DNA from: Eledone cirrhosa
Taxonomy: Eukaryota
Assembly (NCBI GenBank): GCA_964016885.1
Contig: OZ024744.1
Coordinates: 130,324,001-130,388,000 of the forward strand
Direction of reading: 5' to 3'
Length of the DNA stretch: 64,000 nucleotides
Position numbers and translations under genes: made by a program. Numbering within the stretch: position 1 is the stretch's first letter; each line of letters begins with the position of its first letter. The notes under the pieces were generated by a model. The model saw only the letters and a list, made by a program, of their open reading frames with translations. It was not told where the DNA came from and ran no database searches. This document shows positions 1,603 to 62,650 of the stretch, piece after piece.

Positions 1603-1802
1603 AACCCCAACTTAACTTAACCCCAACTTCACTCAACCCCAACGTAACTCAACCCCAACTTAACTTAACCCCAACTTCACTCAACCCCAACTTAACTTAA
1701 CCCCAACTTCACTCAACACCAACTTAAGTCAACCCCAACTTAACTTAACCCCAACTTGACTTAACCCCAACTTAAATTAGCCCCAACTTAACTTAAGCCC
1801 AA
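1603..1802 (-). repeat. Inverted satellite segment 1 (200 bp, unique allele)
   Basis: AACCCCAACTTAACTT monomers from GGGGTT|AACCCC to AAGCCCAA; carries the AAGTC monomer, private AACACC and AAATT variants, right junction CCCAAAATCGGGG. Confidence 0.95.
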
Positions 1803-3663
1803 AATCGGGGTTAAGTTAAGTTGGCGTTATGTTCAGTCAGGCTTAACTTAAGTTGGGGTTCAGTTAAGTTGGGGGTAAGTTAAGTTGGGGTTAAGTTAAG
1901 TTGCGGTTAAGTTGGGGTTAAGTTAAGTTAGGGTTAAGTTAAGTTGGGGTTGAGTTAAGTTGGGGTTAATTAAGTGGTGGTTATGTTAAGTTGGGGTTAA
2001 TTTAAATTGGGGTTAAGTTAACTTTGTGGTTAAGTTAAGTTGAGGTTAAGTTAAGTTGGGGTTAAGTTAAGTTGGGGTTAAGTTAAGTTGGGGCTAAGTT
2101 AAGTTGGGGCTAAGTTAAGTTGGGGCTAAGTTAAGTTGGGGTTAAGTTAAGTTGGGGTTAATTTAAGTTGGGGTTAAGTTAAGTTGGGGTTAAGTTAAGT
2201 TGGGGTTAAGTTAAGTTGGTGTTAAGTTAAGTTGGGGCTAAGTTAAGTTGGGGCTGAGTTAAGTTGGGGCTGAGTTAAGTTGGGGTTAAGTTAAGTTGGG
2301 GTTGAGTTAAGTTGGGGTTAAGTTAAGTTGGGGTCAAGTTAAGTTGGGGTTAAGTTGGTGTTAAGTTAAGTTAGGTTTAAGTTAAGTTGGGGTTAAGTTA
2401 AGTTGGGGTTAAGTTAAGTTGGGGTTAAGTTAAGTTGGGGTTAAGTTAATTTGTGGTTAAGTTAAGTTGGGGTTAAGTTAAGTTGGGGTTAAGTTAAGTC
2501 GGGGTTAAGTTAAGTTGGGGTTAAGTTAAGTTGGGGTTAATTTAAGTTGGGGTTAAGTTAAGTTGGGGTTAAGTTAAGTTGGGGATAATTTAAGTTGGGG
2601 TTAAGTTAAGTTTGGGTTTAAGTTAAGTTGGGGTTAAGTTAAGTTGGGGTTAAGTTAAGTTGGGGTTAAGTTAAGTTGGTTAGTTAAGTTGAGTTTAAGT
2701 TAAGTTGGGGTTAATTTAAGTTGGGGTTAAGTTAAGCTGGGGTTAAGTTAAGTTGGGGTTAAGTTAAGTTGGGGTTAATTTAAGTTGGGGTTAAGTTAAG
2801 TTGCGGGTAATTTAAGTTGGGGTTAAGTTAAGTTGGGGTTAAGTTAAGTTGGGGTTAAGTTAAGTTGGGGTTAAGTTAAGTTGGGGCTAATTTAAGTTGG
2901 GGCTGAGTTAAGTTGGGGTTAAGTTAAGTTGGGGTTAAGTTAAGTTGGGGTTAAGTTAAGTTGGGGTTAAGTTAAGTTGGGGTTTATTTAAGTTGGGGTT
3001 AAGTTAAGTTGGGGTTCAGTTAAGTTGGGGTTCAGTTAAGTTGGGGTTAAGTTAAGTTGGGGTTAAGATGGGGTTAAATTACGTTGGAGTTAAGTTAAGT
3101 TGGGGTTAAGTTAAATGGGGTTAAGTTAAGTTGGGGTTAAGTTAAGTCGGGGTTAATTTAAGTCGGGGTTAAGTTAAGTTAGGGTTCAGTTAAGTTGGGG
3201 TTAAGTTAAGTTGGGCTTGAGTTAAGTTGGGGTTGAGTTAAATTGGGGTTGAGTTAAGTTGGGGTTGAGTTAAGTTGGTGTTGAGTTAAGTTGGGGTTAA
3301 GTTAAGTTGGGGTTAAGTTAAGTTGCAGTTAAGTTAAGTTGAGGTTAAGTTAAGGTGCGGTTAAGTTAAGTTGGGCTTAAGTTAAGTTGGGGCTAAGTTA
3401 AGTTGGGGCTAAGTTAAGTTGGGGCTAAGTTAAGTTGGGGTTAAGTTAAGTTGGGGTTAAGTTAAGTCGGGGTTAAGTTAAGTTGGGGTTAAGTTAAGTT
3501 GGGGTTAAGTTAAGTTGGGGTTAAGTTAAGTTGGTTAGTTAAGTTGAGTTTAAGTTAAGTTGGGGTTAATTTAAGTTGGGGTTAAGTTAAGTTGGGGTTA
3601 AGTTAAGTTGGGGTTAAGTTAAGTTGGGGTTAAGTTAAGTTGGGGTTAAGTTAAGTTGGGGTT

Positions 3664-3838
3664 AACCCCAACTTAACTTAACCCCAACTTCACTCAACCC
3701 CAACGTAACTCAACCCCAACTTAACTTAACCCCAACTTCACTCAACCCCAACTTAACTTAACCCCAACTTCACTCAACCCCAACTTCCAACTTGACTTAA
3801 CCCCAACTTAACTTAGCCCCAACTTAACTTAAGCCCAA
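3664..3838 (-). repeat. Inverted segment 2 (175-bp class)
   Basis: Reverse-orientation monomers with the CAACTTCCAACTTGAC deletion scar. Confidence 0.95.
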
Positions 3839-5917
3839 AGTCGGGGTTAAGTTAAGTTGGCGTTAAGTTAAGTTGGCGTTAAGTTAAGTTAGGCTTAACT
3901 TAAGTTGGGGTTCAGTTAAGTTGGGGGTAAGTTAAGTTGGGGTTAAGTTAAGTTAGGGTTAAGTTAAGTTGGGGTTGAGTTAAGTTGGGGTTAATTAAGT
4001 GGTGGTTATGTTAAGTTGGGGTTAAGTTAAGTTGCGGTTAAGTTGGGGTTAAGTTAAGTTAGGGTTAAGTTAAGTTGGCGTTGAGTTAAGTTGGGGTTAA
4101 TTAAGTGGTGGTTATGTTAAGTTGGGGTTAATTTAAATTGGGGTGAAGTTAACTTTGTGGTTAAGTTAAGTTGGGGTTAAGTTAAGTTGGGGTTAAGTTG
4201 GGGTTGAGTTAAGTTGGGGTTGAGTGAAGTTGGGGTTAAGTTAAGTTGGGGTAAAGTTAAGTTGGGGTTAAGTTAAGTCGGGGTTAAGTTAAGTTGTGGT
4301 TGAGTTAAGTTGGGGTTAATTTAAGTTGGGGCTAAGTTAATTTGTGGTTAAGTTAAGTTGGGGTTAAGTTAAGTTGGGGTTAAGTTAAGTTGGGGTTAAG
4401 TTAAGTTGCAGTTAAGTTAAGTTGAGGTTAAGTTAAGTTGGGGTTAAGTTAAGTTGGGGCTAAGTTAAGTTGGGGCTAAGTTAAGTTGGGGCTAAGTTAA
4501 GTTGGGGTTAAGTCAAGTTGGGGTTAAGTTAACTTGGGGTTAAGTTAAGTTGGGGTTAAGTTAAGTTGGGGTTAAGTTAAGTTGGTGTTAAGTTAAGTTG
4601 GGGCTAAGTTAAGTTGGGGCTGAGTTAAGTTGGGGCTGAGTTAAGTTGGGGTTAAGTTAAGTTGGGGTTGAGTTAAGTTGGGGTTAAGTTAAGTTGGGGT
4701 CAAGTTAAGTTGGGGTTAAGTTGGGGTTAAGTTAAGTTAGGTTTAAGTTAAGTTGGGGTTAAGTTAAGTTGGGGTTAAGTTAAGTTGGGGTTAAGTTAAG
4801 TTGGGGTTAAGTTAATTTGTGGTTAAGTTAAGTTGGGGTTAAGTTAAGTTGGGGTTAAGTTAAGTCGGGGTTAAGTTAAGTTGGGGTTAAGTTAAGTTGG
4901 GGTTAATTTAAGTTGGGGTTAAGTTAAGTTGGGGTTAAGTTAAGTTGGTTAGTTAAGTTGAGTTTAAGTTAAGTTGGGGTTAATTTAAGTTGGGGTTAAG
5001 TTAAGCTGGGGTTAAGTTAAGTTGGGGTTAAGTTAAGTTGGGGTTAATTTAAGTTGGGGTTAAGTTAAGTTGCGGGTAATTTAAGTTGGGGTTAAGTTAA
5101 GTTGGGGTTAAGTTAAGTTGGGGTTAAGTTAAGTTGGGGTTAAGTTAAGTTGGGGCTAATTTAAGTTGGGGCTGAGTTAAGTTGGGGTTAAGTTAAGTTG
5201 GGGTTAAGTTAAGTTGGGGTTAAGTTAAGTTGGGGTTAAGTTAAGTTGGGGTTTATTTAAGTTGGGGTTAAGTTAAGTTGGGGTTCAGTTAAGTTGGGGT
5301 TCAGTTAAGTTGGGGTTAAGTTAAGTTGGGGTTAAGATGGGGTTAAATTACGTTGGAGTTAAGTTAAGTTGGGGTTAAGTTAAGTTGGGGTTAAGTTAAG
5401 TTGGGGTTAAGTTAAGTCGGGGTTAATTTAAGTCGGGGTTAAGTTAAGTTAGGGTTCAGTTAAGTTGGGGTTAAGTTAAGTTGGGCTTGAGTTAAGTTGG
5501 GGTTGAGTTAAATTGGGATTGAGTTAAGTTGGGGTTGAGTTAAGTTGGTGTTGAGTTAAATTGGGGTTAAGTTAAGTTGGGGTTAAGTTAAGTTGCAGTT
5601 AAGTTAAGTTGAGGTTAAGTTAAGGTGCGGTTAAGTTAAGTTGGGCTTAAGTTAAGTTGGGGCTAAGTTAAGTTGGGGCTAAGTTAAGTTGGGGCTAAGT
5701 TAAGTTGGGGTTAAGTTAAGTTGGGGTTAAGTTAAGTCGGGGTTAAGTTAAGTTGGGGTTAAGTTAAGTTGGGGTTAAGTTAAGTTGGGGTTAAGTTAAG
5801 TTGGTTAGTTAAGTTGAGTTTAAGTTAAGTTGGGGTTAATTTAAGTTGGGGTTAAGTTAAGTTGGGGTTAAGTTAAGTTGGGGTTAAGTTAAGTTGGGGT
5901 TAAGTTAAGTTGGGGTT

Positions 5918-6092
5918 AACCCCAACTTAACTTAACCCCAACTTCACTCAACCCCAACGTAACTCAACCCCAACTTAACTTAACCCCAACTTCACTCAAC
6001 CCCAACTTAACTTAACCCCAACTTCACTCAACCCCAACTTCCAACTTGACTTAACCCCAACTTAACTTAGCCCCAACTTAACTTAAGCCCAA
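5918..6092 (-). repeat. Inverted segment 3 (175-bp class)
   Basis: Same junctions and CTTCCAAC scar. Confidence 0.95.
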
Positions 6093-7623
6093 AGTCGGGG
6101 TTAAGTTAAGTTGGCGTTAAGTTAAGTTGGCGTTAAGTTAAGTTAGGCTTAACTTAAGTTGGGGTTCAGTTAAGTTGGGGTTAAGTTAAGTTGGTGTTAA
6201 GTTAAGTTGGGGCTAAGTTAAGTTGGGGCTGAGTTAAGTTGGGGCTGAGTTAAGTTGGGGTTAAGTTAAGTTGGGGTTGAGTTAAGTTGGGGTTAAGTTA
6301 AGTTGGGGTCAAGTTAAGTTGGGGTTAAGTTGGGGTTAAGTTAAGTTAGGTTTAAGTTAAGTTGGGGTTAAGTTAAGTTGGGGTTAAGTTAAGTTGGGGT
6401 TAAGTTAAGTTGGGGTTAAGTTAATTTGTGGTTAAGTTAAGTTGGGGTTAAGTTAAGTTGGGGTTAAGTTAAGTCGGGGTTAAGTTAAGTTGGGGTTAAG
6501 TTAAGTTGGGGTTAATTTAAGTTGGGGTTAAGTTAAGTTGGGGTTAAGTTAAGTTGGGGATAATTTAAGTTGGGGTTAAGTTAAGTTTGGGTTTAAGTTA
6601 AGTTGGGGTTAAGTTAAGTTGGGGTTAAGTTAAGTTGGGGTTAAGTTAAGTTGGTTAGTTAAGTTGAGTTTAAGTTAAGTTGGGGTTAATTTAAGTTGGG
6701 GTTAAGTTAAGCTGGGGTTAAGTTAAGTTGGGGTTAAGTTAAGTTGGGGTTAATTTAAGTTGGGGTTAAGTTAAGTTGCGGGTAATTTAAGTTGGGGTTA
6801 AGTTAAGTTGGGGTTAAGTTAAGTTGGGGTTAAGTTAAGTTGGGGTTAAGTTAAGTTGGGGCTAATTTAAGTTGGGGCTGAGTTAAGTTGGGGTTAAGTT
6901 AAGTTGGGGTTAAGTTAAGTTGGGGTTAAGTTAAGTTGGGGTTAAGTTAAGTTGGGGTTTATTTAAGTTGGGGTTAAGTTAAGTTGGGGTTCAGTTAAGT
7001 TGGGGTTCAGTTAAGTTGGGGTTAAGTTAAGTTGGGGTTAAGATGGGGTTAAATTACGTTGGAGTTAAGTTAAGTTGGGGTTAAGTTAAGTTGGGGTTAA
7101 GTTAAGTTGGGGTTAAGTTAAGTCGGGGTTAATTTAAGTCGGGGTTAAGTTAAGTTAGGGTTCAGTTAAGTTGGGGTTAAGTTAAGTTGGGCTTGAGTTA
7201 AGTTGGGGTTGAGTTAAATTGGGGTTGAGTTAAGTTGGGGTTGAGTTAAGTTGGTGTTGAGTTAAGTTGGGGTTAAGTTAAGTTGGGGTTAAGTTAAGTT
7301 GCAGTTAAGTTAAGTTGAGGTTAAGTTAAGGTGCGGTTAAGTTAAGTTGGGCTTAAGTTAAGTTGGGGCTAAGTTAAGTTGGGGCTAAGTTAAGTTGGGG
7401 CTAAGTTAAGTTGGGGTTAAGTTAAGTTGGGGTTAAGTTAAGTCGGGGTTAAGTTAAGTTGGGGTTAAGTTAAGTTGGGGTTAAGTTAAGTTGGGGTTAA
7501 GTTAAGTTGGTTAGTTAAGTTGAGTTTAAGTTAAGTTGGGGTTAATTTAAGTTGGGGTTAAGTTAAGTTGGGGTTAAGTTAAGTTGGGGTTAAGTTAAGT
7601 TGGGGTTAAGTTAAGTTGGGGTT

Positions 7624-7798
7624 AACCCCAACTTAACTTAACCCCAACTTCACTCAACCCCAACGTAACTCAACCCCAACTTAACTTAACCCCAACTTCA
7701 CTCAACCCCAACTTAACTTAACCCCAACTTCACTCAACCCCAACTTCCAACTTGACTTAACCCCAACTTAACTTAGCCCCAACTTAACTTAAGCCCAA
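7624..7798 (-). repeat. Inverted segment 4 (175-bp class)
   Basis: Same junctions and scar. Confidence 0.95.
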
Positions 7799-8787
7799 AG
7801 TCGGGGTTAAGTTAAGTTGGCGTTAAGTTAAGTTGGCGTTAAGTTAAGTTAGGCTTAACTTAAGTTGGGGTTCAGTTAAGTTGGGGGTAAGTTAAGTTGG
7901 GGTTAAGTTAAGTTAGGGTTAAGTTAAGTTGGGGTTGAGTTAAGTTGGGGTTAATTAAGTGGTGGTTATGTTAAGTTGGGGTTAAGTTAAGTTGGGGTTA
8001 ATTTAAATTGGGGTTAAGTTAACTTTGTGGTTAAGTTAAGTTGGGGTTAAGTTAAGTTGGGGTAAAGTTGGGGTTGAGTTAAGTTGGGGTTGAGTGAAGT
8101 TGGGGTTAAGTTAAGTTGGGGTTAAGTTAAGTTGGGGTTAAGATAAGTCGGGGTTAAGTTAAGTTGTGGTTGAGTTAAGTTGGGGTTAATTTAAGTTGGG
8201 GCTAAGTTAATTTGTGGTTAAGTTAAGTTGGGGTTAAGTTAAGTTGGGGTTAAGTTAAGTTGGGGTTGAGTTAAGTTGGGGCTAAGTTAATTTGGGGTTA
8301 AGTTAAGTTGGGGTTGAGTTAAGTTGGTGTTGAGTTAAGTTGGGGTTAAGTTAAGTTGGGGTTAAGTTAAGTTGCAGTTAAGTTAAGTTGAGGTTAAGTT
8401 AAGGTGCGGTTAAGTTAAGTTGGGGTTAAGTTAAGTTGGGGCTAAGTTAAGTTGGGGCTAAGTTAAGTTGGGGCTAAGTTAAGTTGGGGTTAAGTTACGT
8501 TGGGGTTAAGTTAAGTCGGGGTTAAGTTAAGTTGGGGTTAAGTTAAGTTGGGGTTAATTTAAGTTGGGGTTAAGTTAAGTTGGGGTTAAGTTAAGTTGGG
8601 GTTAAGTTAAGTTGGGGTTAAGTTGGGTTTAAGTTAAGTTGGGGTTAAGTTAAGTTGGGGTCAAGGTAAGTTGGGGTTAAGTTAAGTTGGTTAGTTAAGT
8701 TGAGTTTAAGTTAAGTTGGGGTTAATTTAAGTTGGGGTTAAGTTAAGTTGGGGTTAAGTTAAGTTGGGGTTAAGTTAAGTTGGGGTT

Positions 8788-9003
8788 AACCCCAACTTAA
8801 CTTAACCCCAACTTAACTTAACCCCAACTTCACTCAACCCCAACGTAACTCAACCCCAATTTAACTTAACCCCAACTTCACTCAACCCCAACTTAACTTA
8901 ACCCCAACTTCACTCAATCCCAACTTAAGTCAACCCCAACTTAACTTAACCCCAACTTGACTTAACCCCAACTTAACTTAGCCCCAACTTAACTTAAGCC
9001 CAA
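8788..9003 (-). repeat. Inverted segment 5 (216-bp class)
   Basis: Extra consensus monomer, CCCCAATTTAAC and CAATCCCAAC variants, no scar. Confidence 0.95.
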
Positions 9004-10141
9004 AGTCGGGGTTAAGTTAAGTTGGCGTTAAGTTAGGCTTAACTTAAGTTGGGGGTAAGTTAAGTTGGGGGTAAGTTAAGTTGGGGTTAAGTTAAGTTGC
9101 GGTTAAGTTGGGGTTAAGTTAAGTTAGGGTTAAGTTAAGTTGGCGTTGAGTTAAGTTGGGGTTAATTAAGTGGTGGTTATGTTAAGTTGGGGTTAATTTA
9201 AATTGGGGTGAAGTTAACTTTGTGGTTAAGTTAAGTTGGGGTTAAGTTAAGTTGGGGTTAAGTTGGGGTTGAGTTAAGTTGGGGTTGAGTGAAGTTGGGG
9301 TTAAGTTAAGTTGGGGTAAAGTTAAGTTGGGGTTAAGTTAAGTCGGGGTTAAGTTAAGTTGTGGTTGAGTTAAGTTGGGGTTAATTTAAGTTGGGGCTAA
9401 GTTAATTTGTGGTTAAGTTAAGTTGGGGTTAAGTTAAGTTGGGGTTAAGTTAAGTTGGGGTTAAGTTAAGTTGCAGTTAAGTTAAGTTGAGGTTAAGTCA
9501 AGTTGGGGTTAAGTTAAGTTGGGGTTAAGTTAACTTGGGGTTCAGTTAAGTTGGGGCTAAGTTAAGTTGGGGTTAAGATGGGGTTAAATTAAGTTGGGGT
9601 TAAGTTAAGTTGTGGTTAAGTTAAGTTGGGGTTAAGTTAAGTTGGGGTTAAGTTAAGTCGGGGTTAAGTTAAGTCGGGGTTAAGTTAAGTTAGGGTTCAG
9701 TTAAGTTGGGGTTAAGTTAAGTTGGGGTTCAGTTAAGTTGGGGTTGAGTTAAATTGGGGTTGAGTTAAGTTGGGGTTGAGTTAAGTTGGTGTTGAGTTAA
9801 GTTGGGGTTAAGTTAAGTTGGGGTTAAGTTAAGTTGCAGTTAAGTTAAGTTGAGGTTAAGTTAAGGTGCGGTTAAGTTAAGTTGGGCTTAAGTTAAGTTG
9901 GGGCTAAGTTAAGTTGGGGCTAAGTTAAGTTGGGGCTAAGTTAAGTTGGGGTTAAGTTAAGTTGGGGTTAAGTTAAGTCGGGGTTAAGTTAAGTTGGGGT
10001 TAGTTAAGTTGGGGTTAAGTTAAGTTGGGGTTAAGTTAAGTTGGTTAGTTAAGTTGAGTTTAAGTTAAGTTGGGGTTAATTTAAGTTGGGGTTAAGTTAA
10101 GTTGGGGTTAAGTTAAGTTGGGGTTAAGTTAAGTTGGGGTT

Positions 10142-10316
10142 AACCCCAACTTAACTTAACCCCAACTTCACTCAACCCCAACGTAACTCAACCCCAACTT
10201 AACTTAACCCCAACTTCACTCAACCCCAACTTAACTTAACCCCAACTTCACTCAACCCCAACTTCCAACTTGACTTAACCCCAACTTAACTTAGCCCCAA
10301 CTTAACTTAAGCCCAA
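10142..10316 (-). repeat. Inverted segment 6 (175-bp class)
   Basis: Same junctions and scar. Confidence 0.95.
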
Positions 10317-12492
10317 AGTCGGGGTTAAGTTAAGTTGGCGTTAAGTTAAGTTGGCGTTAAGTTAAGTTAGGCTTAACTTAAGTTGGGGTTCAGTTAAGTT
10401 GGGGGTAAGTTAAGTTGGGGTTAAGTTAAGTTAGGGTTAAGTTAAGTTGGGGTTGAGTTAAGTTGGGGTTAATTAAGTGGTGGTTATGTTAAGTTGGGGT
10501 TAAGTTAAGTTGCGGTTAAGTTGGGGTTAAGTTAAGTTAGGGTTAAGTTAAGTTGGCGTTGAGTTAAGTTGGGGTTAATTAAGTGGTGGTTATGTTAAGT
10601 TGGGGTTAATTTAAATTGGGGTGAAGTTAACTTTGTGGTTAAGTTAAGTTGGGGTTAAGTTAAGTTGGGGTTAAGTTGGGGTTGAGTTAAGTTGGGGTTG
10701 AGTGAAGTTGGGGTTAAGTTAAGTTGGGGTAAAGTTAAGTTGGGGTTAAGTTAAGTCGGGGTTAAGTTAAGTTGTGGTTGAGTTAAGTTGGGGTTAATTT
10801 AAGTTGGGGCTAAGTTAATTTGTGGTTAAGTTAAGTTGGGGTTAAGTTAAGTTGGGGTTAAGTTAAGTTGGGGTTAAGTTAAGTTGCAGTTAAGTTAAGT
10901 TGAGGTTAAGTTAAGTTGGGGTTAAGTTAAGTTGGGGCTAAGTTAAGTTGGGGCTAAGTTAAGTTGGGGCTAAGTTAAGTTGGGGTTAAGTTAAGTTGGG
11001 GTTAAGTTAACTTGGGGTTAAGTTAAGTTGGGGTTAAGTTAAGTTGGGGTTAAGTTAAGTTGGTGTTAAGTTAAGTTGGGGCTAAGTTAAGTTGGGGCTG
11101 AGTTAAGTTGGGGCTGAGTTAAGTTGGGGTTAAGTTAAGTTGGGGTTGAGTTAAGTTGGGGTTAAGTTAAGTTGGGGTCAAGTTAAGTTGGGGTTAAGTT
11201 GGGGTTAAGTTAAGTTAGGTTTAAGTTAAGTTGGGGTTAAGTTAAGTTGGGGTTAAGTTAAGTTGGGGTTAAGTTAAGTTGGGGTTAAGTTAATTTGTGG
11301 TTAAGTTAAGTTGGGGTTAAGTTAAGTTGGGGTTAAGTTAAGTCGGCGTTAAGTTAAGTTGGGGTTAAGTTAAGTTGGGGTTAATTTAAGTTGGGGTTAA
11401 GTTAAGTTGGGGTTAAGTTAAGTTGGGGATAATTTAAGTTGGGGTTAAGTTAAGTTTGGGTTTAAGTTAAGTTGGGGTTAAGTTAAGTTGGGGTTAAGTT
11501 AAGTTGGGGTTAAGTTAAGTTGGTTAGTTAAGTTGAGTTTAAGTTAAGTTGGGGTTAATTTAAGTTGGGGTTAAGTTAAGCTGGGGTTAAGTTAAGTTGG
11601 GGTTAAGTTAAGTTGGGGTTAATTTAAGTTGGGGTTAAGTTAAGTTGCGGGTAATTTAAGTTGGGGTTAAGTTAAGTTGGGGTTAAGTTAAGTTGGGGTT
11701 AAGTTAAGTTGGGGTTAAGTTAAGTTGGGGCTAATTTAAGTTGGGGCTGAGTTAAGTTGGGGTTAAGTTAAGTTGGGGTTAAGTTAAGTTGGGGTTAAGT
11801 TAAGTTGGGGTTAAGTTAAGTTGGGGTTTATTTAAGTTGGGGTTAAGTTAAGTTGGGGTTCAGTTAAGTTGGGGTTCAGTTAAGTTGGGGTTAAGTTAAG
11901 TTGGGGTTAAGATGGGGTTAAATTACGTTGGAGTTAAGTTAAGTTGGGGTTAAGTTAAGTTGGGGTTAAGTTAAGTTGGGGTTAAGTTAAGTCGGGGTTA
12001 ATTTAAGTCGGGGTTAAGTTAAGTTAGGGTTCAGTTAAGTTGGGGTTAAGTTAAGTTGGGCTTGAGTTAAGTTGGGGTTGAGTTAAATTGGGGTTGAGTT
12101 AAGTTGGGGTTGAGTTAAGTTGGTGTTGAGTTAAGTTGGGGTTAAGTTAAGTTGGGGTTAAGTTAAGTTGCAGTTAAGTTAAGTTGAGGTTAAGTTAAGG
12201 TGCGGTTAAGTTAAGTTGGGCTTAAGTTAAGTTGGGGCTAAGTTAAGTTGGGGCTAAGTTAAGTTGGGGCTAAGTTAAGTTGGGGTTAAGTTAAGTTGGG
12301 GTTAAGTTAAGTCGGGGTTAAGTTAAGTTGGGGTTAAGTTAAGTTGGGGTTAAGTTAAGTTGGGGTTAAGTTAAGTTGGTTAGTTAAGTTGAGTTTAAGT
12401 TAAGTTGGGGTTAATTTAAGTTGGGGTTAAGTTAAGTTGGGGTTAAGTTAAGTTGGGGTTAAGTTAAGTTGGGGTTAAGTTAAGTTGGGGTT

Positions 12493-12667
12493 AACCCCAA
12501 CTTAACTTAACCCCAACTTCACTCAACCCCAACGTAACTCAACCCCAACTTAACTTAACCCCAACTTCACTCAACCCCAACTTAACTTAACCCCAACTTC
12601 ACTCAACCCCAACTTCCAACTTGACTTAACCCCAACTTAACTTAGCCCCAACTTAACTTAAGCCCAA
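12493..12667 (-). repeat. Inverted segment 7 (175-bp class)
   Basis: Same junctions and scar. Confidence 0.95.
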
Positions 12668-13640: not shown

Positions 13641-13815
13641 AACCCCAACTTAACTTAACCCCAACTTCACTCAACCCCAACGTAACTCAACCCCAACTTA
13701 ACTTAACCCCAACTTCACTCAACCCCAACTTAACTTAACCCCAACTTCACTCAACCCCAACTTCCAACTTGACTTAACCCCAACTTAACTTAGCCCCAAC
13801 TTAACTTAAGCCCAA
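13641..13815 (-). repeat. Inverted segment 8 (175-bp class)
   Basis: Same junctions and scar. Confidence 0.95.
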
Positions 13816-49904: not shown

Positions 49905-50079
49905 AACCCCAACTTAACTTAACCCCAACTTCACTCAACCCCAACGTAACTCAACCCCAACTTAACTTAACCCCAACTTCACTCAACCCCAACTTAACTT
50001 CACCCCAACTTCACTCAACCCCAACTTCCAACTTGACTTAACCCCAACTTAACTTAGCCCCAACTTAACTTAAGCCCAA
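49905..50079 (-). repeat. Inverted segment 22 (175-bp class)
   Basis: Scar present. Confidence 0.95.
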
Positions 50080-52127: not shown

Positions 52128-52302
52128 AACCCCAACTTAACTTAACCCCAACTTCACTCAACCCCAACGTAACTCAACCCCAACTTAACTTAACCCCAAC
52201 TTCACTCAACCCCAACTTAACTTAACCCCAACTTCACTCAACCCCAACTTCCAACTTGACTTAACCCCAACTTAACTTAGCCCCAACTTAACTTAAGCCC
52301 AA
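52128..52302 (-). repeat. Inverted segment 23 (175-bp class)
   Basis: Scar present. Confidence 0.95.
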
Positions 52303-53831: not shown

Positions 53832-54047
53832 AACCCCAACTTAACTTAACCCCAACTTAACTTAACCCCAACTTCACTCAACCCCAACGTAACTCAACCC
53901 CAATTTAACTTAACCCCAACTTCACTCAACCCCAACTTAACTTAACCCCAACTTCACTCAATCCCAACTTAAGTCAACCCCAACTTAACTTAACCCCAAC
54001 TTGACTTAACCCCAACTTAACTTAGCCCCAACTTAACTTAAGCCCAA
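53832..54047 (-). repeat. Inverted segment 24 (216-bp class)
   Basis: Class variants CAATTT and CAATCCC. Confidence 0.95.
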
Positions 54048-55270
54048 AGTCGGGGTTAAGTTAAGTTGGCGTTAAGTTAAGTTAGGCTTAACTTAAGTTG
54101 GGGGTAAGTTAAGTTGGGGGTAAGTTAAGTTGGGGTTAAGTTAAGTTGCGGTTAAGTTGGGGTTAAGTTAAGTTAGGGTTAAGTTAAGTTGGCGTTGAGT
54201 TAAGTTGGGGTTAATTAAGTGGTGGTTATGTTAAGTTGGGGTTAATTTAAATTGGGGTGAAGTTAACTTTGTGGTTAAGTTAAGTTGGGGTTAAGTTAAG
54301 TTGGGGTTAAGTTGGGGTTGAGTTAAGTTGGGGTTGAGTGAAGTTGGGGTTAAGTTAAGTTGGGGTAAAGTTAAGTTGGGGTTAAGTTAAGTCGGGGTTA
54401 AGTTAAGTTGTGGTTGAGTTAAGTTGGGGTTAATTTAAGTTGGGGCTAAGTTAATTTGTGGTTAAGTTAAGTTGGGGTTAAGTTAAGTTGGGGTTAAGTT
54501 AAGTTGGGGTTAAGTTAAGTTGCAGTTAAGTTAAGTTGAGGTTAAGTCAAGTTGGGGTTAAGTTAAGTTGGGGTTAAGTTAACTTGGGGTTCAGTTAAGT
54601 TGGGGCTAAGTTAAGTTGGGGTTAAGATGGGGTTAAATTAAGTTGGGGTTAAGTTAAGTTGGGGTTAAGTTAAGTTGGGGTTAAGTTAAGTTGGGGTTAA
54701 GTTAAGTCGGGGTTAAGTTAAGTTAGGGTTCAGTTAAGTTGGGGTTAAGTTAAGTTGGGGTTGAGTTAAGTTGGGGTTGAGTTAAATTGGGGTTGAGTTA
54801 AGTTGGGGTTGAGTTAAGTTGGTGTTGAGTGAGTTGGGGTTAATTTAAGTTGGGGTTAAGTTAAGTTGCAGTTAAGTTAAGTTGAGGTTAAGTTAAGGTG
54901 CGGTTAAGTTAAGTTGGGGTTAAGTTAAGTTGGGGCTAAGTTAAGTTGGGGCTAAGTTAAGTTGGGGCTAAGTTAAGTTGGGGTTAAGTTACGTTGGGGT
55001 TAAGTTAAGTCGGGGCTAAGTTAAGTTGGGGTTAAGTTAAGTTGGGGTTAATTTAAGTTGGGGTTGAGTTAAGTTGGGGTTAAGTTTAGTTGGGGTTAAG
55101 TTAAGTTGGGGTTAAGTTAAGTTGGGTTTAAGTTAAGTTGGGGTTAAGTTAAGTTGGGGTCAAGTTAAGTTGGGGTTAAGTTAAGTTGGTTAGTTAAGTT
55201 GAGTTTAAGTTAAGTTGGGGTTAATTTAAGTTGGGGTTAAGTTAAGTTGGGGTTAAGTTAAATTGGGGTT

Positions 55271-55454
55271 AACCCCAACTTAACTTAACCCCAACTTCAC
55301 TCAACCCCAACGTAACTCAACCCCAACTTAACTTAACCCCAACTTCACTCAACCCCAACTTAACTTAACCCCAACTTCACTCAACCCCAACTTAAGTCAA
55401 CCCCAACTTAACTTAACCCCAACTTGACTTAACCCCAACTTAACTTAAGCCCAA
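55271..55454 (-). repeat. Inverted segment 25 (184-bp class)
   Basis: GTCGGAG right flank, AAATTGGGG left flank. Confidence 0.95.
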
Positions 55455-57253
55455 AGTCGGAGTTAAGTTAAGTTGGCGTTAAGTTAAGTTAGGCTTAACT
55501 TAAGTTGGGGGTAAGTTAAGTTGGGGGTAAGTTAAGTTGGGGTTAAGTTAAGTTGCGGTTAAGTTGGGGTTAAGTTAAGTTAGGGTTAAGTTAAGTTGGC
55601 GTTGAGTTAAGTTGGGGTTAATTAAGTGGTGGTTATGTTAAGTTGGGGTTAATTTAAATTGGGGTGAAGTTAACTTTGTGGTTAAGTTAAGTTGCAGTTA
55701 AGTTAAGTTGAGGTTAAGTTAAGTTGGGGTTAAATTAAGTTGGGGTTAAGTTAAGTTGGGGCTAAGTTAAGTTGGGGCTAAGTTAAGTTGGGGCTAAGTT
55801 AAGTTGGGGTTAAGTTAAGTTGGGGTTAAGTTAAGTTGGGGTTAAGTTAAGTTGGGGTTAAGTTAAGTTGGTGTTAAGTTAAGTTGGGGCTAAGTTAAGT
55901 TGGGGCTGAGTTAAGTTGGGGCTGAGTTAAGTTGGGATTAAGTTAAGTTGGGGTTGAGTTAAGTTGGGGTTAAGTTAAGTTGGGGTCAAGTTAAGTTGGG
56001 GTTAAGTTGGGGTTAAGTTAAGTTAGGTTTAAGTTAAGTTGGGGTTAAGTTAAGTTGGGGTTAAGTTAAGTTGGGGTTAAGTTAAGTTGGGGTTAAGTTA
56101 AGTTGGGGTTAAGTTAATTTGTGGTTAAGTTAAGTTGGGGTTAAGTTAAGTTGGGGTTAAGTTAAGTCGGGGTTAAGTTAAGTTGGGGTTAAGTTAAGTT
56201 GGGGTTAATTTAAGTTGGGGTTAAGTTAAGTTGGGGATTAAGTTAAGTTGGGGATAATTTAAGTTGGGGTTAAGTTAAGTTTGGGTTTAAGTTAAGTTGG
56301 GGTTAAGTTAAGTTGGGGTTAAGTTAAGTTGGGGTTAAGTTAAGTTGGTTAGTTAAGTTGAGTTTAAGTTAAGTTGGGGTTAATTTAAGTTGGGGTTAAG
56401 TTAAGCTGGGGTTAAGTTAAGTTGGGGTTAAGTTAAGTTGGGGTTAATTTAAGTTGGGGTTAAGTTAAGTTGCGGGTAATTTAAGTTGGGGTTAAGTTAA
56501 GTTGGGGTTAAGTTAAGTTGGGGTTAAGTTAAGTTGGGGTTAAGTTAAGTTGGGGTTAAGTTAAGTTGGGGCTAATTTAAGTTGGGGCTGAGTTAAGTTG
56601 GGGTTAAGTTAAGTTGGGGTTAAGTTAAGTTGGGGTTAAGTTAAGTTGGGGTTTATTTAAGTTGGGGTTAAGTTAAGTTGGGGTTCAGTTAAGTTGGGGT
56701 TCAGTTAAGTTGGGGTTAAGATGGGGTTAAATTACGTTGGAGTTAAGTTAAGTTGGGGCTAAGTTAAGTTGGGGTTAAGTTAAGTTGGGGTTAAGTTAAG
56801 TCGGGGTTAATTTAAGTCGGGGTTAAGTTAAGTTAGGGTTCAGTTAAGTTGGGGTTAAGTTAAGTTGGGCTTGAGTTAAGTTGGGGTTGAGTTAAATTGG
56901 GGTTGAGTTAAGTTGGGGTTGAGTTAAGTTGGTGTTGAGTTAAGTTGGGGTTAAGTTAAGTTGGGGTTAAGTTAAGTTGCAGTTAAGTTAAGTTGAGGTT
57001 AAGTTAAGGTGCGGTTAAGTTAAGTTGGGCTTAAGTTAAGTTGGGGCTAAGTTAAGTTGGGGCTAAGTTAAGTTGGGGCTAAGTTAAGTTGGGGTTAAGT
57101 TAAGTTGGGGTTAAGTTAAGTCGGGGTTAAGTTAAGTTGGGGTTAAGTTAAGTTGGGGTTAAGTTAAGTTGGGGTTAAGTTAAGTTGGTTAGTTAAGTTG
57201 AGTTTAAGTTAAGTTGGGGTTAATTTAAGTTGGGGTTAAGTTAAGTTGGGGTT

Positions 57254-57428
57254 AACCCCAACTTAACTTAACCCCAACATCACTCAACCCCAACGTAACT
57301 CAACCCCAACTTAACTTAACCCCAACTTCACTCAACCCCAACTTAACTTAACCCCAACTTCACTCAACCCCAACTTCCAACTTGACTTAACCCCAACTTA
57401 ACTTAGCCCCAACTTAACTTAAGCCCAA
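57254..57428 (-). repeat. Inverted segment 26 (175-bp class)
   Basis: Scar present. Confidence 0.95.
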
Positions 57429-59005
57429 AGTCGGGGTTAAGTTAAGTTGGCGTTAAGTTAAGTTGGCGTTAAGTTAAGTTAGGCTTAACTTAAGTTGGGG
57501 TTCAGTTAAGTTGGGGGTAAGTTAAGTTGGGGTTAAGTTAAGTTAGGGTTAAGTTAAGTTGGGGTTGAGTTAAGTTGGGGTTAATTAAGTGGTGGTTATG
57601 TTAAGTTGGGGTTAAGTTAAGTTGGGGTTAATTTAAATTGGGGTTAAGTTAACTTTGTGGTTAAGTTAAGTTGGGGTTAAGTTAAGTTGGGGTAAAGTTG
57701 GGGTTGAGTTAAGTTGGGGTTGAGTGAAGTTGGGGTTAAGTTAAGTTGGGGTTAAGTTAAGTTGGGGTTAAGATAAGTCGGGGTTAAGTTAAGTTGTGGT
57801 TGAGTTAAGTTGGGGTTAATTTAAGTTGGGGCTAAGTTAATTTGTGGTTAAGTTAAGTTGTGGTTAAGTTAAGTTGGGGTTAAGTTAAGTTGGGGTTGAG
57901 TTAAGTTGGGGCTAAGTTAATTTGGGGTTAAGTTAATTTGGGGTTAAGTTAAGTTGGGGTTAAGTTAAGTTGGGTTTAAGTTAAGTTGGGGTTAAATTAA
58001 GTTGGGGTTAAATTAAGTTGGGGTTAAGTTAAGTTGGGGGTAAGTTAAGTTGGGGCTGAGTTAAGTTGGGGTTAAGTTAAGTTGAGGTTAAGTTAAGTTG
58101 GGGTTAAATTAAGTTGGGGTTAAGTTAAGTTGGGGTTAAGTTAAGTTGGGGATAAGTTAAGTTGGGGATAATTTAAGTTGGGGTTAAGTTAAGTTGGGGT
58201 TAAGTTAAGTTGGGGTTAAGTTAAGTTGGGGATAAGTTAAGTTGGGGTTAAGTTAAGTTGGGGTTAAGTTAAGTTGGGGTTAAGTTAAGTTGGGGCTAAG
58301 TTAAGTTGGGGCTGAGTTAAGTTGGGGTTAAGTTAAGTTGGGGGTTAAGTTAAGTTGGGGTTAATTTAAGTTGGGGTTTATTTAAGTTGGGGTTAAGTTA
58401 AGTTGGGGTTCAGTTAAGTTGGGGTTAAGTTAAGTTGGGGTTAAGATGGGGTTAAATTAAGTTGGGGTTAAGTTAAGTTGGGGTTAAGTTAAGTTGGAGT
58501 TAAGTTAAGTTGGGGTTAAGTTAAGTCGGGGTTAAGTTAAGTCGGGGTTAAGTTAAGTTAGGGTTCAGTTAAGTTGGGGTTAAGTTAAGTTGGGGTTGAG
58601 TTAAGTTGGGGTTGAGTTAAATTGGGGTTGAGTTAAGTTGGGGTTAAGTTAAGTTGCAGTTAAGTTAAGTTGAGGTTAAGTTAAGGTGCGGTTAAGTTAA
58701 GTTGGGGTTAAGTTAAGTTGGGGCTAAGTTAAGTTGGGGCTAAGTTAAGTTGGGGTTAAGTTACGTTGGGGTTAAGTTAAGTCGGGGTTAAGTTAAGTTG
58801 GGGTTAAGTTAAGTTGGGGTTAATTTAAGTTGGGGTTAAGTTAAGTTGGGGTTAAGTTAAGTTGGGGTTAAGTTAAGTTGGGGTTAAGTTGGGTTTAAGT
58901 TAAGTTGGGGTTAAGTTAAGTTGGTTAGTTAAGTTGAGTTTAAGTTAAGTTGGGGTTAATTTAAGTTGGGGTTAAGTTAAGTTGGGGTTAAGTTAAGTTG
59001 GGGTT

Positions 59006-59221
59006 AACCCCAACTTAACTTAACCCCAACTTAACTTAACCCCAACTTCACTCAACCCCAACGTAACTCAACCCCAATTTAACTTAACCCCAACTTCACT
59101 CAACCCCAACTTAACTTAACCCCAACTTCACTCAATCCCAACTTAAGTCAACCCCAACTTAACTTAACCCCAACTTGACTTAACCCCAACTTAACTTAGC
59201 CCCAACTTAACTTAAGCCCAA
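59006..59221 (-). repeat. Inverted segment 27 (216-bp class)
   Basis: Class variants CAATTT and CAATCCC. Confidence 0.95.
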
Positions 59222-60492
59222 AGTCGGGGTTAAGTTAAGTTGGCGTTAAGTTAAGTTAGGCTTAACTTAAGTTGGGGGTAAGTTAAGTTGGGGGTAAGTT
59301 AAGTTGGGGTTAAGTTAAGTTGCGGTTAAGTTGGGGTTAAGTTAAGTTAGGGTTAAGTTAAGTTGGCGTTGAGTTAAGTTGGGGTTAATTAAGTGGTGGT
59401 TATGTTAAGTTGGGGTTAATTTAAATTGGGGTGAAGTTAACTTTGTGGTTAAGTTAAGTTGGGGTTAAGTTAAGTTGGGGTTAAGTTGGGGTTGAGTTAA
59501 GTTGGGGTTGAGTGAAGTTGGGGTTAAGTTAAGTTGGGGTAAAGTTAAGTTGGGGTTAAGTTAAGTCGGGGTTAAGTTAAGTTGTGGTTGAGTTAAGTTG
59601 GGGTTAATTTAAGTTGGGGCTAAGTTAATTTGTGGTTAAGTTAAGTTGGGGTTAAGTTAAGTTGGGGTTAAGTTAAGTTGGGGTTAAGTTAAGTTGCAGT
59701 TAAGTTAAGTTGAGGTTAATCAAGTTGGGGTTAAGTTAAGTTGGGGTTAAGTTAACTTGGGGTTCAGTTAAGTTGGGGCTAAGTTAAGTTGGGGTTAAGA
59801 TGGGGTTAAATTAAGTTGGGGTTAAGTTAAGTTGGGGTTAAGTTAAGTTGGGGTTAAGTTAAGTTGGGGTTAAGTTAAGTCGGGGTTAAGTTAAGTCGGG
59901 GTTAAGTTAAGTTAGGGTTCAGTTAAGTTGGGGTTAAGTTAAGTTGGGGTTGAGTTAAGTTGGGGTTGAGTTAAATTGGGGTTGAGTTAAGTTGGGGTTG
60001 AGTTAAGTTGGTGTTGAGTTAAGTTGGGGTTAAGTTAAGTTGGGGTTAAGTTAAGTTGCAGTTAAGTTAAGTTGAGGTTAAGTTAAGGTGCGGTTAAGTT
60101 AAGTTGGGGTTAAGTTAAGTTGGGGCTAAGTTAAGTTGGGGCTAAGTTAAGTTGGGGCTAAGTTAAGTTGGGGTTAAGTTACGTTGGGGTTAAGTTAAGT
60201 CGGGGCTAAGTTAAGTTGGGGTTAAGTTAAGTTGGGGTTAATTTAAGTTGGGGTTGAGTTAAGTTGGGGTTAAGTTTAGTTGGGGTTAAGTTAAGTTGGG
60301 GTTAAGTTAAGTTGGGTTTAAGTTAAGTTGGGGTTAAGTTAAGTTGGGGTCAAGTTAAGTTGGGGTTAAGTTAAGTTGGTTAGTTAAGTTGAGTTTAAGT
60401 TAAGTTGGGGTTAATTTAAGTTGGGGTTAAGTTAAGTTGGGGTTAAGTTAATTTGGGGTTAAGTTAAGTTGGGGTTAAGTTAAATTGGGGTT

Positions 60493-60676
60493 AACCCCAA
60501 CTTAACTTAACCCCAACTTCACTCAACCCCAACGTAACTCAACCCCAACTTAACTTAACCCCAACTTCACTCAACCCCAACTTAACTTAACCCCAACTTC
60601 ACTCAACCCCAACTTAAGTCAACCCCAACTTAACTTAACCCCAACTTGACTTAACCCCAACTTAACTTAAGCCCAA
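60493..60676 (-). repeat. Inverted segment 28 (184-bp class)
   Basis: GTCGGAG right flank, AAATTGGGG left flank. Confidence 0.95.
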
Positions 60677-62475
60677 AGTCGGAGTTAAGTTAAGTTGGCG
60701 TTAAGTTAAGTTAGGCTTAACTTAAGTTGGGGGTAAGTTAAGTTGGGGGTAAGTTAAGTTGGGGTTAAGTTAAGTTGCGGTTAAGTTGGGGTTAAGTTAA
60801 GTTAGGGTTAAGTTAAGTTGGCGTTGAGTTAAGTTGGGGTTAATTAAGTGGTGGTTATGTTAAGTTGGGGTTAATTTAAATTGGGGTGAAGTTAACTTTG
60901 TGGTTAAGTTAAGTTGCAGTTAAGTTAAGTTGAGGTTAAGTTATGTTGGGGTTAAGTTAAGTTGGGGTTAAGTTAAGTTGGGGCTAAGTTAAGTTGGGGC
61001 TAAGTTAAGTTGGGGCTAAGTTAAGTTGGGGTTAAGTTAAGTTGGGGTTAAGTTAAGTTGGGGTTAAGTTAAGTTGGGGTTAAGTTAAGTTGGTGTTAAG
61101 TTAAGTTGGGGCTAAGTTAAGTTGGGGCTGAGTTAAGTTGGGGCTGAGTTAAGTTGGGATTAAGTTAAGTTGGGGTTGAGTTAAGTTGGGGTTAAGTTAA
61201 GTTGGGGTCAAGTTAAGTTGGGGTTAAGTTGGGGTTAAGTTAAGTTAGGTTTAAGTTAAGTTGGGGTTAAGTTAAGTTGGGGTTAAGTTAAGTTGGGGTT
61301 AAGTTAAGTTGGGGTTAAGTTAAGTTGGGGTTAAGTTAATTTGTGGTTAAGTTAAGTTGGGGTTAAGTTAAGTTGGGGTTAAGTTAAGTCGGGGTTAAGT
61401 TAAGTTGGGGTTAAGTTAAGTTGGGGTTAATTTAAGTTGGGGTTAAGTTAAGTTGGGGATTAAGTTAAGTTGGGGATAATTTAAGTTGGGGTTAAGTTAA
61501 GTTTGGGTTTAAGTTAAGTTGGGGTTAAGTTAAGTTGGGGTTAAGTTAAGTTGGGGTTAAGTTAAGTTGGTTAGTTAAGTTGAGTTTAAGTTAAGTTGGG
61601 GTTAATTTAAGTTGGGGTTAAGTTAAGCTGGGGTTAAGTTAAGTTGGGGTTAAGTTAAGTTGGGGTTAATTTAAGTTGGGGTTAAGTTAAGTTGCGGGTA
61701 ATTTAAGTTGGGGTTAAGTTAAGTTGGGGTTAAGTTAAGTTGGGGTTAAGTTAAGTTGGGGTTAAGTTAAGTTGGGGTTAAATTAAGTTGGGGCTAATTT
61801 AAGTTGGGGCTGAGTTAAGTTGGGGTTAAGTTAAGTTGGGGTTAAGTTAAGTTGGGGTTAAGTTAAGTTGGGGTTTATTTAAGTTGGGGTTAAGTTAAGT
61901 TGGGGTTCAGTTAAGTTGGGGTTCAGTTAAGTTGGGGTTAAGATGGGGTTAAATTACGTTGGAGTTAAGTTAAGTTGGGGTTAAGTTAAGTTGGGGTTAA
62001 GTTAAGTTGGGGTTAAGTTAAGTCGGGGTTAATTTAAGTCGGGGTTAAGTTAAGTTAGGGTTCAGTTAAGTTGGGGTTAAGTTAAGTTGGGCTTGAGTTA
62101 AGTTGGGGTTGAGTTAAATTGGGGTTGAGTTAAGTTGGGGTTGAGTTAAGTTGGTGTTGAGTTAAGTTGGGGTTAAGTTAAGTTGGGGTTAAGTTAAGTT
62201 GCAGTTAAGTTAAGTTGAGGTTAAGTTAAGGTGCGGTTAAGTTAAGTTGGGCTTAAGTTAAGTTGGGGCTAAGTTAAGTTGGGGCTAAGTTAAGTTGGGG
62301 CTAAGTTAAGTTGGGGTTAAGTTAAGTTGGGGTTAAGTTAAGTCGGGGTTAAGTTAAGTTGGGGTTAAGTTAAGTTGGGGTTAAGTTAAGTTGGGGTTAA
62401 GTTAAGTTGGTTAGTTAAGTTGAGTTTAAGTTAAGTTGGGGTTAATTTAAGTTGGGGTTAAGTTAAGTTGGGGTT

Positions 62476-62650
62476 AACCCCAACTTAACTTAACCCCAAC
62501 TTCACTCAACCCCAACGTAACTCAACCCCAACTTAACTTAACCCCAACTTCACTCAACCCCAACTTAACTTAACCCCAACTTCACTCAACCCCAACTTCC
62601 AACTTGACTTAACCGCAACTTAACTTAGCCCCAACTTAACTTAAGCCCAA
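62476..62650 (-). repeat. Inverted segment 29 (175-bp class)
   Basis: Scar present. Confidence 0.95.

What the first reader, a model, noticed from the sequence alone, without database searches (positions are those of the whole stretch)
1603..62650. Satellite whose higher-order unit carries a built-in short inversion, repeated 29 times
Seen: a strongly strand-asymmetric 16-bp array flips orientation for only about 10-13 monomers and flips back, 29 times, with near-identical junctions and the same ordered private variants (CTTCACTC x3, CGTAACTC, CTTGAC, AAGCCCAA). Established: satellite arrays are mostly head-to-tail, with orientation switches that are rare and usually large, and long near-perfect inverted repeats are usually unstable. 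Inference: one ancestral inversion was captured in a ~1-2-kb amplification unit, leaving a regular lattice of hairpin/cruciform-capable sites (about one per 2.2 kb on average). It may be a passenger, or it may be functional, for example in non-B-DNA-based centromere seeding, as a source of hairpin RNA, or as a recombination initiator driving the amplification. This is the best candidate for an undescribed system in the window.
Basis: partly seen in the sequence, partly recalled or inferred. Interest (0 to 1): 0.75.

Follow-up and report, generated by a model that had tools for sequence, protein, structure and literature searches.

The report
Tiny satellite inversion copied ~970 times
The 29 short back-to-front patches in this 16-letter repeat are real and belong to a family of about 970 in this genome that likely descends from one DNA-copying slip and was likely multiplied as a passenger rather than kept for a job, although such patches likely serve now and then as starting points for much larger flips.

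Summary
Confirmed: 29 inverted islands (158-215 bp) with shared junctions. The tail junction lies in read-derived contigs at depth >1000 (possibly the source sample), so it is not an assembly artefact. It is not a regular lattice or fixed HOR: spacing is 802-5,981 bp and perfect arms are at most 43 bp. The family has 969 tail matches in the genome, none in 3.25 Mb of the same array. Two independent island families exist. Each is an inverted copy of its own left flank, and 6 of 8 independent junctions sit on the monomer's TTAA dyad, pointing to short template switches. Islands show no extra conservation, no breakpoint enrichment and no extra homogeneity, and are sometimes lost: passengers. Three larger inverted blocks outside the window each end inside an island, so islands likely seed bigger inversions. 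The scan had noted this family, and two of those three cases, on other windows of this genome. Closest known: Tribolium conserved inversion sites, human HSat3/beta-satellite switches, small inverted triplications. Centromere or RNA function is untested.

The parts
1..64000 (+). 16-bp satellite array, consensus TTAAGTTAAGTTGGGG, G-rich on +; part of an array of about 8.4 Mb on G000:C28 (about 127.0-135.3 Mb, with interruptions)
1597..1608 (.). example head junction GGGG[TTAA]CCCC: 4-bp TTAA microhomology, centre of a short perfect palindrome
3833..3844 (.). example tail junction GCCCAAAGTCGG: 1-bp overlap, equal to a TTAA-type fold-back lacking 4 central bases; present in read-derived contigs
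1603..1801 (-). island 1, 199 bp
3664..3837 (-). island 2, 174 bp
5918..6091 (-). island 3, 174 bp
7624..7797 (-). island 4, 174 bp
8788..9002 (-). island 5, 215 bp
10142..10315 (-). island 6, 174 bp
12493..12666 (-). island 7, 174 bp
13641..13814 (-). island 8, 174 bp
15443..15616 (-). island 9, 174 bp
16723..16880 (-). island 10, 158 bp (one monomer lost)
19026..19199 (-). island 11, 174 bp
19828..20001 (-). island 12, 174 bp; shortest spacing (802 bp)
21502..21675 (-). island 13, 174 bp
23302..23516 (-). island 14, 215 bp
27961..28175 (-). island 15, 215 bp, head palindrome broken by a substitution
30048..30262 (-). island 16, 215 bp, same broken head
36029..36243 (-). island 17, 215 bp
37431..37645 (-). 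island 18, 215 bp
43235..43449 (-). island 19, 215 bp
46221..46435 (-). island 20, 215 bp
47704..47886 (-). island 21, 183 bp
49905..50078 (-). island 22, 174 bp
52128..52301 (-). island 23, 174 bp
53832..54046 (-). island 24, 215 bp
55271..55453 (-). island 25, 183 bp
57254..57427 (-). island 26, 174 bp
59006..59220 (-). island 27, 215 bp
60493..60675 (-). island 28, 183 bp
62476..62649 (-). island 29, 174 bp
23517..27958 (+). long spacer made of island-free higher-order modules
30263..36026 (+). long spacer made of island-free higher-order modules
37646..43232 (+). long spacer made of island-free higher-order modules

Best explanation
The 29 islands are copies of one small inversion that likely arose by a replication template switch at the self-complementary TTAA words of the 16-bp monomer and was likely multiplied as a passenger when kilobase blocks of the array were duplicated. 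Shown: the anatomy, the shared junctions, the copy number, the uneven distribution, and two further independent island families that copy their own left flank. Inferred: the switch-and-return origin (direct evidence for families B and C, by analogy for family A) and passive amplification by unequal exchange or slippage. A likely side effect: each island is a ready-made inverted template, so in-register recombination or break-induced replication into an island can reverse the array without a new junction and seed blocks of kilobases to hundreds of kilobases.
For: One origin: among 144 family-A tails in all samples, 125 carry the same downstream marker and 128 the same internal marker, with island length varying by whole monomers. 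969 degenerate tail matches genome-wide (882 +, 87 -). Template switch: the family-B marker doublet occurs 15 times on + and 15 times on -, every time beside a head junction; the family-C marker 3 + 3. Each island is thus an inverted copy of its left flank plus an inverted spacer, event type '3-1-2-4' (PMC5453318, passages). 6 of 8 independent junctions carry the TTAA microhomology, against 20/256 expected (binomial p about 6e-6). Sizes of 150-250 bp are close to the 160-bp median of small inverted triplications (PMC13334657). Passenger: private changes 1.82/kb in islands against 1.78/kb outside (k=25, p=0.87; other k, p 0.36-0.46). Spacing CV 0.57 lies within the 0.45-2.16 range of 26 monomer variants of similar copy number. 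Parse breakpoints are not enriched at islands (208 breakpoints, p=0.60). 18 of 33 untargeted 10-kb array samples have no island and are, if anything, more homogeneous (unique 41-mers 0.17 against 0.25, p=0.03). No family-A tail between C28 124.69 and 130.25 Mb. The downstream marker stands without an island in 8 places of the island-rich 132.0-132.75 Mb zone. An AT-rich insert is co-amplified in the same way. Seeding: three larger inverted blocks each have one end inside an island.
Against: The original event of family A could not be reconstructed. Its island shares no marker with the left flank and only one recurrent marker with the right flank (105 of 176 forward copies lie 200-400 bp after a tail), and its tail lacks the full TTAA. 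The conservation test rests on about 10 events in islands, and the 10-kb samples are not independent. Both junctions are kept in 29 of 29 copies, and the density stays near one per 2-3 kb over about 2.5 Mb, which selection could also give. The three 'U-turn' cases rest on the assembly alone, and one block's other end is a 200-N gap. No chromatin, break or RNA data were available.
Confidence: 0.75

Rival explanations
1. Driver: island hairpins or cruciforms stall forks or are cut, start recombination and so drive amplification of the units that carry them.
For: Predicted single-strand folding is far stronger with an island (-185 against -40 kcal/mol for 521 nt; 8 islands -146 to -159 against 8 controls -26 to -35). 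Family A reached about 970 copies. A truncated-island rearrangement (2 copies, C28 130.418 and 130.422 Mb) and two junctions with other satellites fall inside islands.
Against: No breakpoint enrichment at or near islands in the window. The left flank marker is kept in 28-29 of 29 copies. Island-free array is more extensive and at least as homogeneous. Families B (29 hits) and C (3 copies) stayed rare although equally hairpin-capable in layout. Perfect arms are 43 bp or shorter.
Confidence: 0.12
2. Functional lattice: the island-rich zone is selected as non-B-DNA (dyad) sequence for centromere seeding, chromatin folding or hairpin RNA, as proposed but untested for Tribolium.
For: Junctions are conserved in hundreds of copies. 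A similar 'fixed junction, variable repeat number' cassette is discussed as possibly functional in T. madens (PMC13081366, passages). The zone lies in a satellite-rich region 4-6 Mb from the contig end.
Against: Spacing is irregular and island length varies about threefold. Islands mutate at the background rate, including two broken head palindromes. Islands are absent from 3.25 Mb of the same array and nearly absent (3 copies) from a second array on C18, and are locally lost. All listed family-A hits (the first 100 of 969, sorted from contig C28) and all sampled ones are on one contig, unlike Tribolium sites that are shared across chromosomes.
Confidence: 0.08
3. In-place inversion by two breaks and end-joining, or by recombination between TTAA dyads, with no replication switch, followed by the same passive amplification.
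For: Family A shows no clear duplicated flank, and its tail has only a 1-bp overlap, as end-joining would give.
Against: Families B and C duplicate their left flank, which a balanced inversion cannot do. Family A's junctions are not phase-balanced as a clean two-break inversion would be (read from the sequence).
Confidence: 0.2
4. Assembly or library artefact (fold-back chimeras).
For: Palindromic junctions are a known chimera type (recalled). Three other samples' RAD reads show no junction-crossing read among 10 laid.
Against: The exact tail junction is in read-derived contigs at depth 1464.5 and 1040.8, with variant junction contigs at depth 56-363. The islands fall into nested sequence classes that share point variants over megabases.
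Confidence: 0.02

Closest known systems
Tribolium conserved satellite inversion sites / macro-dyad symmetries (T. madens INV_1a, INV_1b and TmSat2 cassettes, PMC13081366; T. freemani six inversion types, PMC12581902; passages read)
   Same: Few junction types, each in hundreds to thousands of near-identical copies; truncated monomers joined with no foreign DNA; fixed junctions with a variable number of repeats; hairpin potential; function proposed but untested.
   Different: There the inverted subarrays are kilobases long, roughly symmetric, flanked by a second satellite and present on many chromosomes. Here they are 10-28-monomer out-and-back islands in a one-directional array, patchy, and on one contig as far as listed and sampled.
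Human HSat3B5 (chr9) and beta-satellite arrays with >200 inversion breakpoints (10.1101/2021.07.12.452052, passages)
   Same: Many strand switches inside large non-alpha satellite arrays.
   Different: The passages read give neither size, shared ancestry nor mechanism. The supplement (Tables S6, S7) was not seen and may.
Short-range template switch, four-point model, types 3-1-2-4 / 1-3-4-2 (PMC5453318, passages)
   Same: Families B and C show an inverted repeat of the left flank plus an inverted spacer.
   Different: Described in unique sequence as single events. Here inside a satellite and later amplified; family A's type is unresolved.
Small inverted triplications, SIT (PMC13334657, abstract and passages)
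   Same: Inverted fragment of about 160 bp, a short spacer and a few bases of reverse-complement microhomology.
   Different: A SIT has direct duplications on both sides. B and C show only the left one. The word 'satellite' (word start) does not occur in that paper's main text.
Inverted-repeat-mediated rearrangements: DUP-TRP/INV-DUP (PMC11293582, abstract) and deer-mouse inversions between satellite arrays (10.1101/2024.05.29.596518, abstract)
   Same: Inverted repeats act as substrates for template switches or ectopic recombination that give larger inverted segments.
   Different: The substrates there are kilobase low-copy repeats or whole arrays. Here they are 150-450-bp islands inside one array, used in 16-bp register.

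Membership tests
Higher-order repeat with built-in inversion (e.g. Tribolium TmSat2 monomer) | fixed-length unit repeated head to tail | tested here: not met
   Spacers of 40-364 monomers, mosaics of modules; spacing 802-5,981 bp
Higher-order repeat with built-in inversion (e.g. Tribolium TmSat2 monomer) | ordered variant monomers shared between units | tested here: met
   Same ordered modules before the head and after the tail in nearly all of 29 units
Higher-order repeat with built-in inversion (e.g. Tribolium TmSat2 monomer) | inversion present in every unit of the satellite | tested here: not met
   18 of 33 untargeted 10-kb samples have none; no family-A tail in 3.25 Mb of array
Tribolium-type macro-dyad symmetry | conserved, amplified inversion junctions without foreign DNA | tested here: met
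   27 of 29 exact heads, 28 of 29 exact tails; 969 tail matches
Tribolium-type macro-dyad symmetry | kilobase-long, roughly symmetric inverted subarrays | tested here: not met
   Islands are 158-215 bp, 8.6% of the window
Tribolium-type macro-dyad symmetry | same junction types on several chromosomes | tested here: inconclusive
   First 100 listed of 969 family-A hits and all sampled ones are on C28; C18 has a different family; 869 hits not listed
Tribolium-type macro-dyad symmetry | (peri)centromeric location | not testable with these tools
   No ChIP or cytology
Four-point template switch (3-1-2-4 / 1-3-4-2) | inverted copy of an adjacent flank plus an inverted spacer (families B, C) | tested here: met
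   B doublet 15 + 15 and C marker 3 + 3, all beside a head junction
Four-point template switch (3-1-2-4 / 1-3-4-2) | same feature for family A, the islands of this window | tested here: inconclusive
   No left-flank marker; one recurrent marker shared with the right flank
Small inverted triplication (SIT) | inverted fragment of about 160 bp with short reverse-complement microhomology | tested here: met
   150 bp (C), 218-250 bp (B), 158-215 bp (A in window); TTAA at 6 of 8 junctions
Small inverted triplication (SIT) | direct duplications on both sides (DUP/IN/DUP) | tested here: not met
   B and C markers occur only left of and inside the island
Small inverted triplication (SIT) | link to Okazaki-fragment ends / FEN1 deficiency | not testable with these tools
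   No replication data

The most novel reading that the evidence does not exclude
The satellite is a self-structuring system. Its TTAA dyads keep generating Okazaki-sized fold-back islands, amplified islands act as in-register U-turns that seed kilobase-to-megabase inversions, and the island-dense zone (C28 about 130.25-132.8 Mb, one hairpin-capable site per 2-3 kb) is retained because it does a job, such as seeding centromeric chromatin through non-B DNA.
Probability: 0.08. Interest if true: 0.75.

Novelty: new variant of a known kind. Interest (0 to 1): 0.33.

Why it matters
Even as a passenger, the family is a natural lineage tracer for how a multi-megabase array grew, was split and was flipped. 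It also gives base-level mechanism where published satellite 'strand switches' are mostly just counted: short template switches at a dyad inside the monomer create islands, and islands then likely lower the barrier to large inversions. That offers a testable route to the hundreds of switches seen in human HSat3/beta-satellite and in Tribolium. One array holds island-rich and island-free megabases of the same repeat, an internal control for the idea that dyad symmetry specifies centromeres.

Tried and rejected
Fixed HOR or regular lattice: rejected. Long near-perfect inverted repeats in the window: rejected, perfect arms are 43 bp or shorter. Head palindrome as a recombination hotspot: shared context around islands is like that of 13 control markers; rejected at this power. 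The first homogeneity test was faulty: the family-B pattern also hit a common variant and the filter left 3 against 3 samples. It was redone on 33 untargeted samples of pure array, leaving out samples mixed with other repeats (L029, L030, L031, L057, L079 and non-array ones) and all samples fetched because they held islands. Reconstruction of family A's ancestral allele failed. Other individuals: RAD runs X7-X9 gave 1, 3 and 6 reads, none across the junction; reduced-representation data, uninformative. Other organisms' runs X4-X6 hold the monomer (35, 7 and 11 contigs laid), but no listed piece spans the junction; 467 pieces were not shown, so absence is not shown. No RNA holder listed. No telomere arrays at either end of C28. 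Paper searches for this satellite's words and for amplified short inversions or inversion seeding in satellite arrays found no direct description. The library is partial and bioRxiv supplements were not seen. PMC12597820 (passages) added nothing. The hits on C4, C14 and C17 were not followed up and not counted as junctions. The organism was not identified.
Full report
1. Observation. The window is a single 16-bp satellite, consensus TTAAGTTAAGTTGGGG, G-rich on +. A skew scan finds 29 C-rich islands, from 1603-1801 to 62476-62649: 14 of 174 bp, 10 of 215, 3 of 183, and one each of 199 and 158. All 301 reverse-strand CCCCAAC words are inside them. Heads are exact in 27 of 29 and tails in 28 of 29. 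Three details need correction. Only CGTAACTC is private; the other markers also occur in the forward array. Spacing is irregular, 802-5,981 bp with CV 0.57. Perfect arms at the head are 25-43 bp in 24 of 29 copies and 8 bp or less in 5. Single strands with an island are predicted to fold strongly (-185 against -40 kcal/mol), because any reverse monomer can pair with any forward one.

2. Not an artefact. A Logan contig built from reads holds the entire 61-base tail junction without differences, at depth 1464.5 in X1 and 1040.8 in X3, with variant junction contigs at depth 56-363. X1 and X3 are one sample that may be the assembly's source, so this tests the assembly and not other individuals. 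RAD reads of three other samples (10 reads, none crossing) are uninformative. Three other organisms' runs hold the monomer; none of the listed pieces spans the junction.

3. Genomic setting. The window is G000:C28:130,324,001-130,388,000 on a 136.5-Mb contig. Sampling places the array at about 127.0-135.3 Mb, with interruptions, plus a reversed block at 124.60-124.69 Mb and a second array on C18 of at least 255 kb. The window's islands (family A) have 433 exact tail matches and 969 degenerate ones. The sorted list jumps from 124.69 to 130.248 Mb, so about 3.25 Mb of array lacks them. Of 144 family-A tails in my samples, 125 share a downstream marker and 128 an internal marker, while island length varies by whole monomers from about 135 to about 450 bp. 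This fits one origin followed by internal slippage. One long island carries a motif otherwise seen in the forward array, which suggests exchange between islands and the bulk array.

4. Origin. Two further, independent families exist. Family B (218-250 bp, 29 hits at C28 128.57-129.60 Mb) and family C (150 bp, 3 copies on C18) each contain an inverted copy of the monomers just left of their head, followed by an inverted spacer. The B doublet occurs 15 times on each strand and the C marker 3 times on each strand, always beside a head. A balanced inversion cannot duplicate a flank; a switch-and-return of type '3-1-2-4' does (PMC5453318, passages). I count eight independent junctions: the heads and tails of A, B and C, a truncated-island tail at 130.418 Mb, and a head at 132,859,230. 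Six carry the monomer's TTAA dyad as microhomology, against 20 of 256 registers expected (p about 6e-6). The other two equal a TTAA fold-back lacking 4-5 central bases. Sizes resemble small inverted triplications (median 160 bp; PMC13334657), but the right-hand duplication is missing. For family A itself the event type is unresolved; I infer the same mechanism by analogy.

5. Passenger or driver. The units between islands are mosaics of 40-364 monomers, and the long spacers contain island-free modules. Private changes occur at 1.82/kb in islands and 1.78/kb outside (about 10 events in islands, low power). Island spacing is no more regular than that of 26 ordinary variants of similar copy number. 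Parse breakpoints are not enriched in or beside islands (p=0.60), and shared context is like that of 13 control markers. Among 33 untargeted 10-kb samples, 18 lack islands and are at least as homogeneous as the 15 with them (samples not independent). The downstream marker stands without an island at 31 of 155 places: 23 in the family-B zone, where it is an ordinary forward marker, and 8 in the family-A zone, one of which still has the forward half of the tail, which suggests loss. An AT-rich insert is co-amplified like any other scar. All this favours hitch-hiking. Against it: junctions are intact in 29 of 29 copies, and no functional data were available.

6. Consequence. Earlier unreviewed notes of this scan suggested that islands seed larger inversions, and I checked this. 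At C28 133,355,367 a reversed block (about 562 kb as sampled; its other end is a 200-N gap) ends two monomers into an island and continues in register as ordinary array. At 132,857,196 a 2,043-bp inverted insert has one end inside an island, a new TTAA junction at the other, and 584 bp identical to the reverse complement of the same locus. A third case I found myself: a perfect palindrome with 1,265-bp arms and a 36-bp spacer at 128,584,615-128,587,180, whose outer end lies 120 bp into a family-B island. So 3 of the 3 larger inverted blocks with a resolved satellite end use an island; two were pointed out by those notes, so this is not a blind sample. None lies in the window, and all rest on the assembly.

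7. Comparison. Conserved, amplified inversion sites in satellites are published for Tribolium (PMC13081366, PMC12581902; passages), and >200 breakpoints for human HSat3B5 and beta-satellite (10.1101/2021.07.12.452052; passages). Inverted repeats as substrates for larger rearrangements are known (PMC11293582 and 10.1101/2024.05.29.596518; abstracts). Searches found no description of this satellite or of sub-300-bp islands amplified in, and seeding inversions within, one array; the library is partial and bioRxiv supplements were not seen.

8. Verdict. Real, mechanistically well explained, most likely without a function of its own: a new variant of a known kind, interest 0.33. The best-supported extra is the chain from dyad to island to larger inversion. 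A selected hairpin lattice remains possible but unlikely (0.08).

Noticed in passing
L042-L043 (G000:C28:128,584,615-128,587,180): Perfect inverted repeat with 1,265-bp arms and a 36-bp spacer, centred in an AT-rich repeat and ending inside a family-B island; such palindromes are usually unstable (recalled), so it is recent or an assembly error.
   Followed up: partly
G000:C28:128.57-129.60 Mb (L013, L041-L050): Independent 218-250-bp island family B, 29 hits, often co-amplified with an AT-rich dyad-rich repeat insert.
   Followed up: yes
L061, L062 (G000:C18:10,129,104; 10,132,204; 10,188,780): Second array of the same satellite (at least 255 kb) with an independent 150-bp island family C in 3 copies.
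   Followed up: yes
L068 (G000:C28:130,418,285 and 130,422,494): Truncated family-A island with a new tail junction that rejoins a copy of its left flank, 2 copies.
   Followed up: partly
L001:1-1700 (G000:C28:124,598,001-124,599,690): The reversed 124.6-Mb block ends inside an island that abuts a different, related-looking G-rich satellite with a longer, diverged unit.
   Followed up: no
L031:6228-6420 and L081-L089 (G000:C28:132.5-132.79 Mb): An AT-rich satellite insert is joined directly to a truncated family-A island; this junction is itself amplified.
   Followed up: partly
L031:8442-8890: A 448-bp island contains a marker series otherwise found in the forward array, hinting at gene conversion between opposite orientations.
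   Followed up: no
L009 (G000:C28:126,000,001-126,010,000): GC-rich tandem repeat of roughly 170 bp about 1 Mb from the array; nucleosome-sized, a possible centromere candidate, untested.
   Followed up: no
L004-L007, L026, L038 (G000:C28:120-126 Mb and 135.5 Mb): Several unrelated satellites flank the array; a similar repeat appears at 123.5, 126.2 and 135.5 Mb, in opposite orientations on the two sides of the 124.6-Mb block.
   Followed up: no
L023 (G000:C28:124.69-124.70 Mb), L025, L040: A roughly 1.6-kb complex tandem unit with internal inverted segments lies next to a 200-N gap at the end of the reversed block.
   Followed up: no
runs X4-X6: Three other coded organisms hold the same 16-bp monomer at lower depth, so the satellite is likely older than this species (or those runs hold its DNA).
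   Followed up: partly
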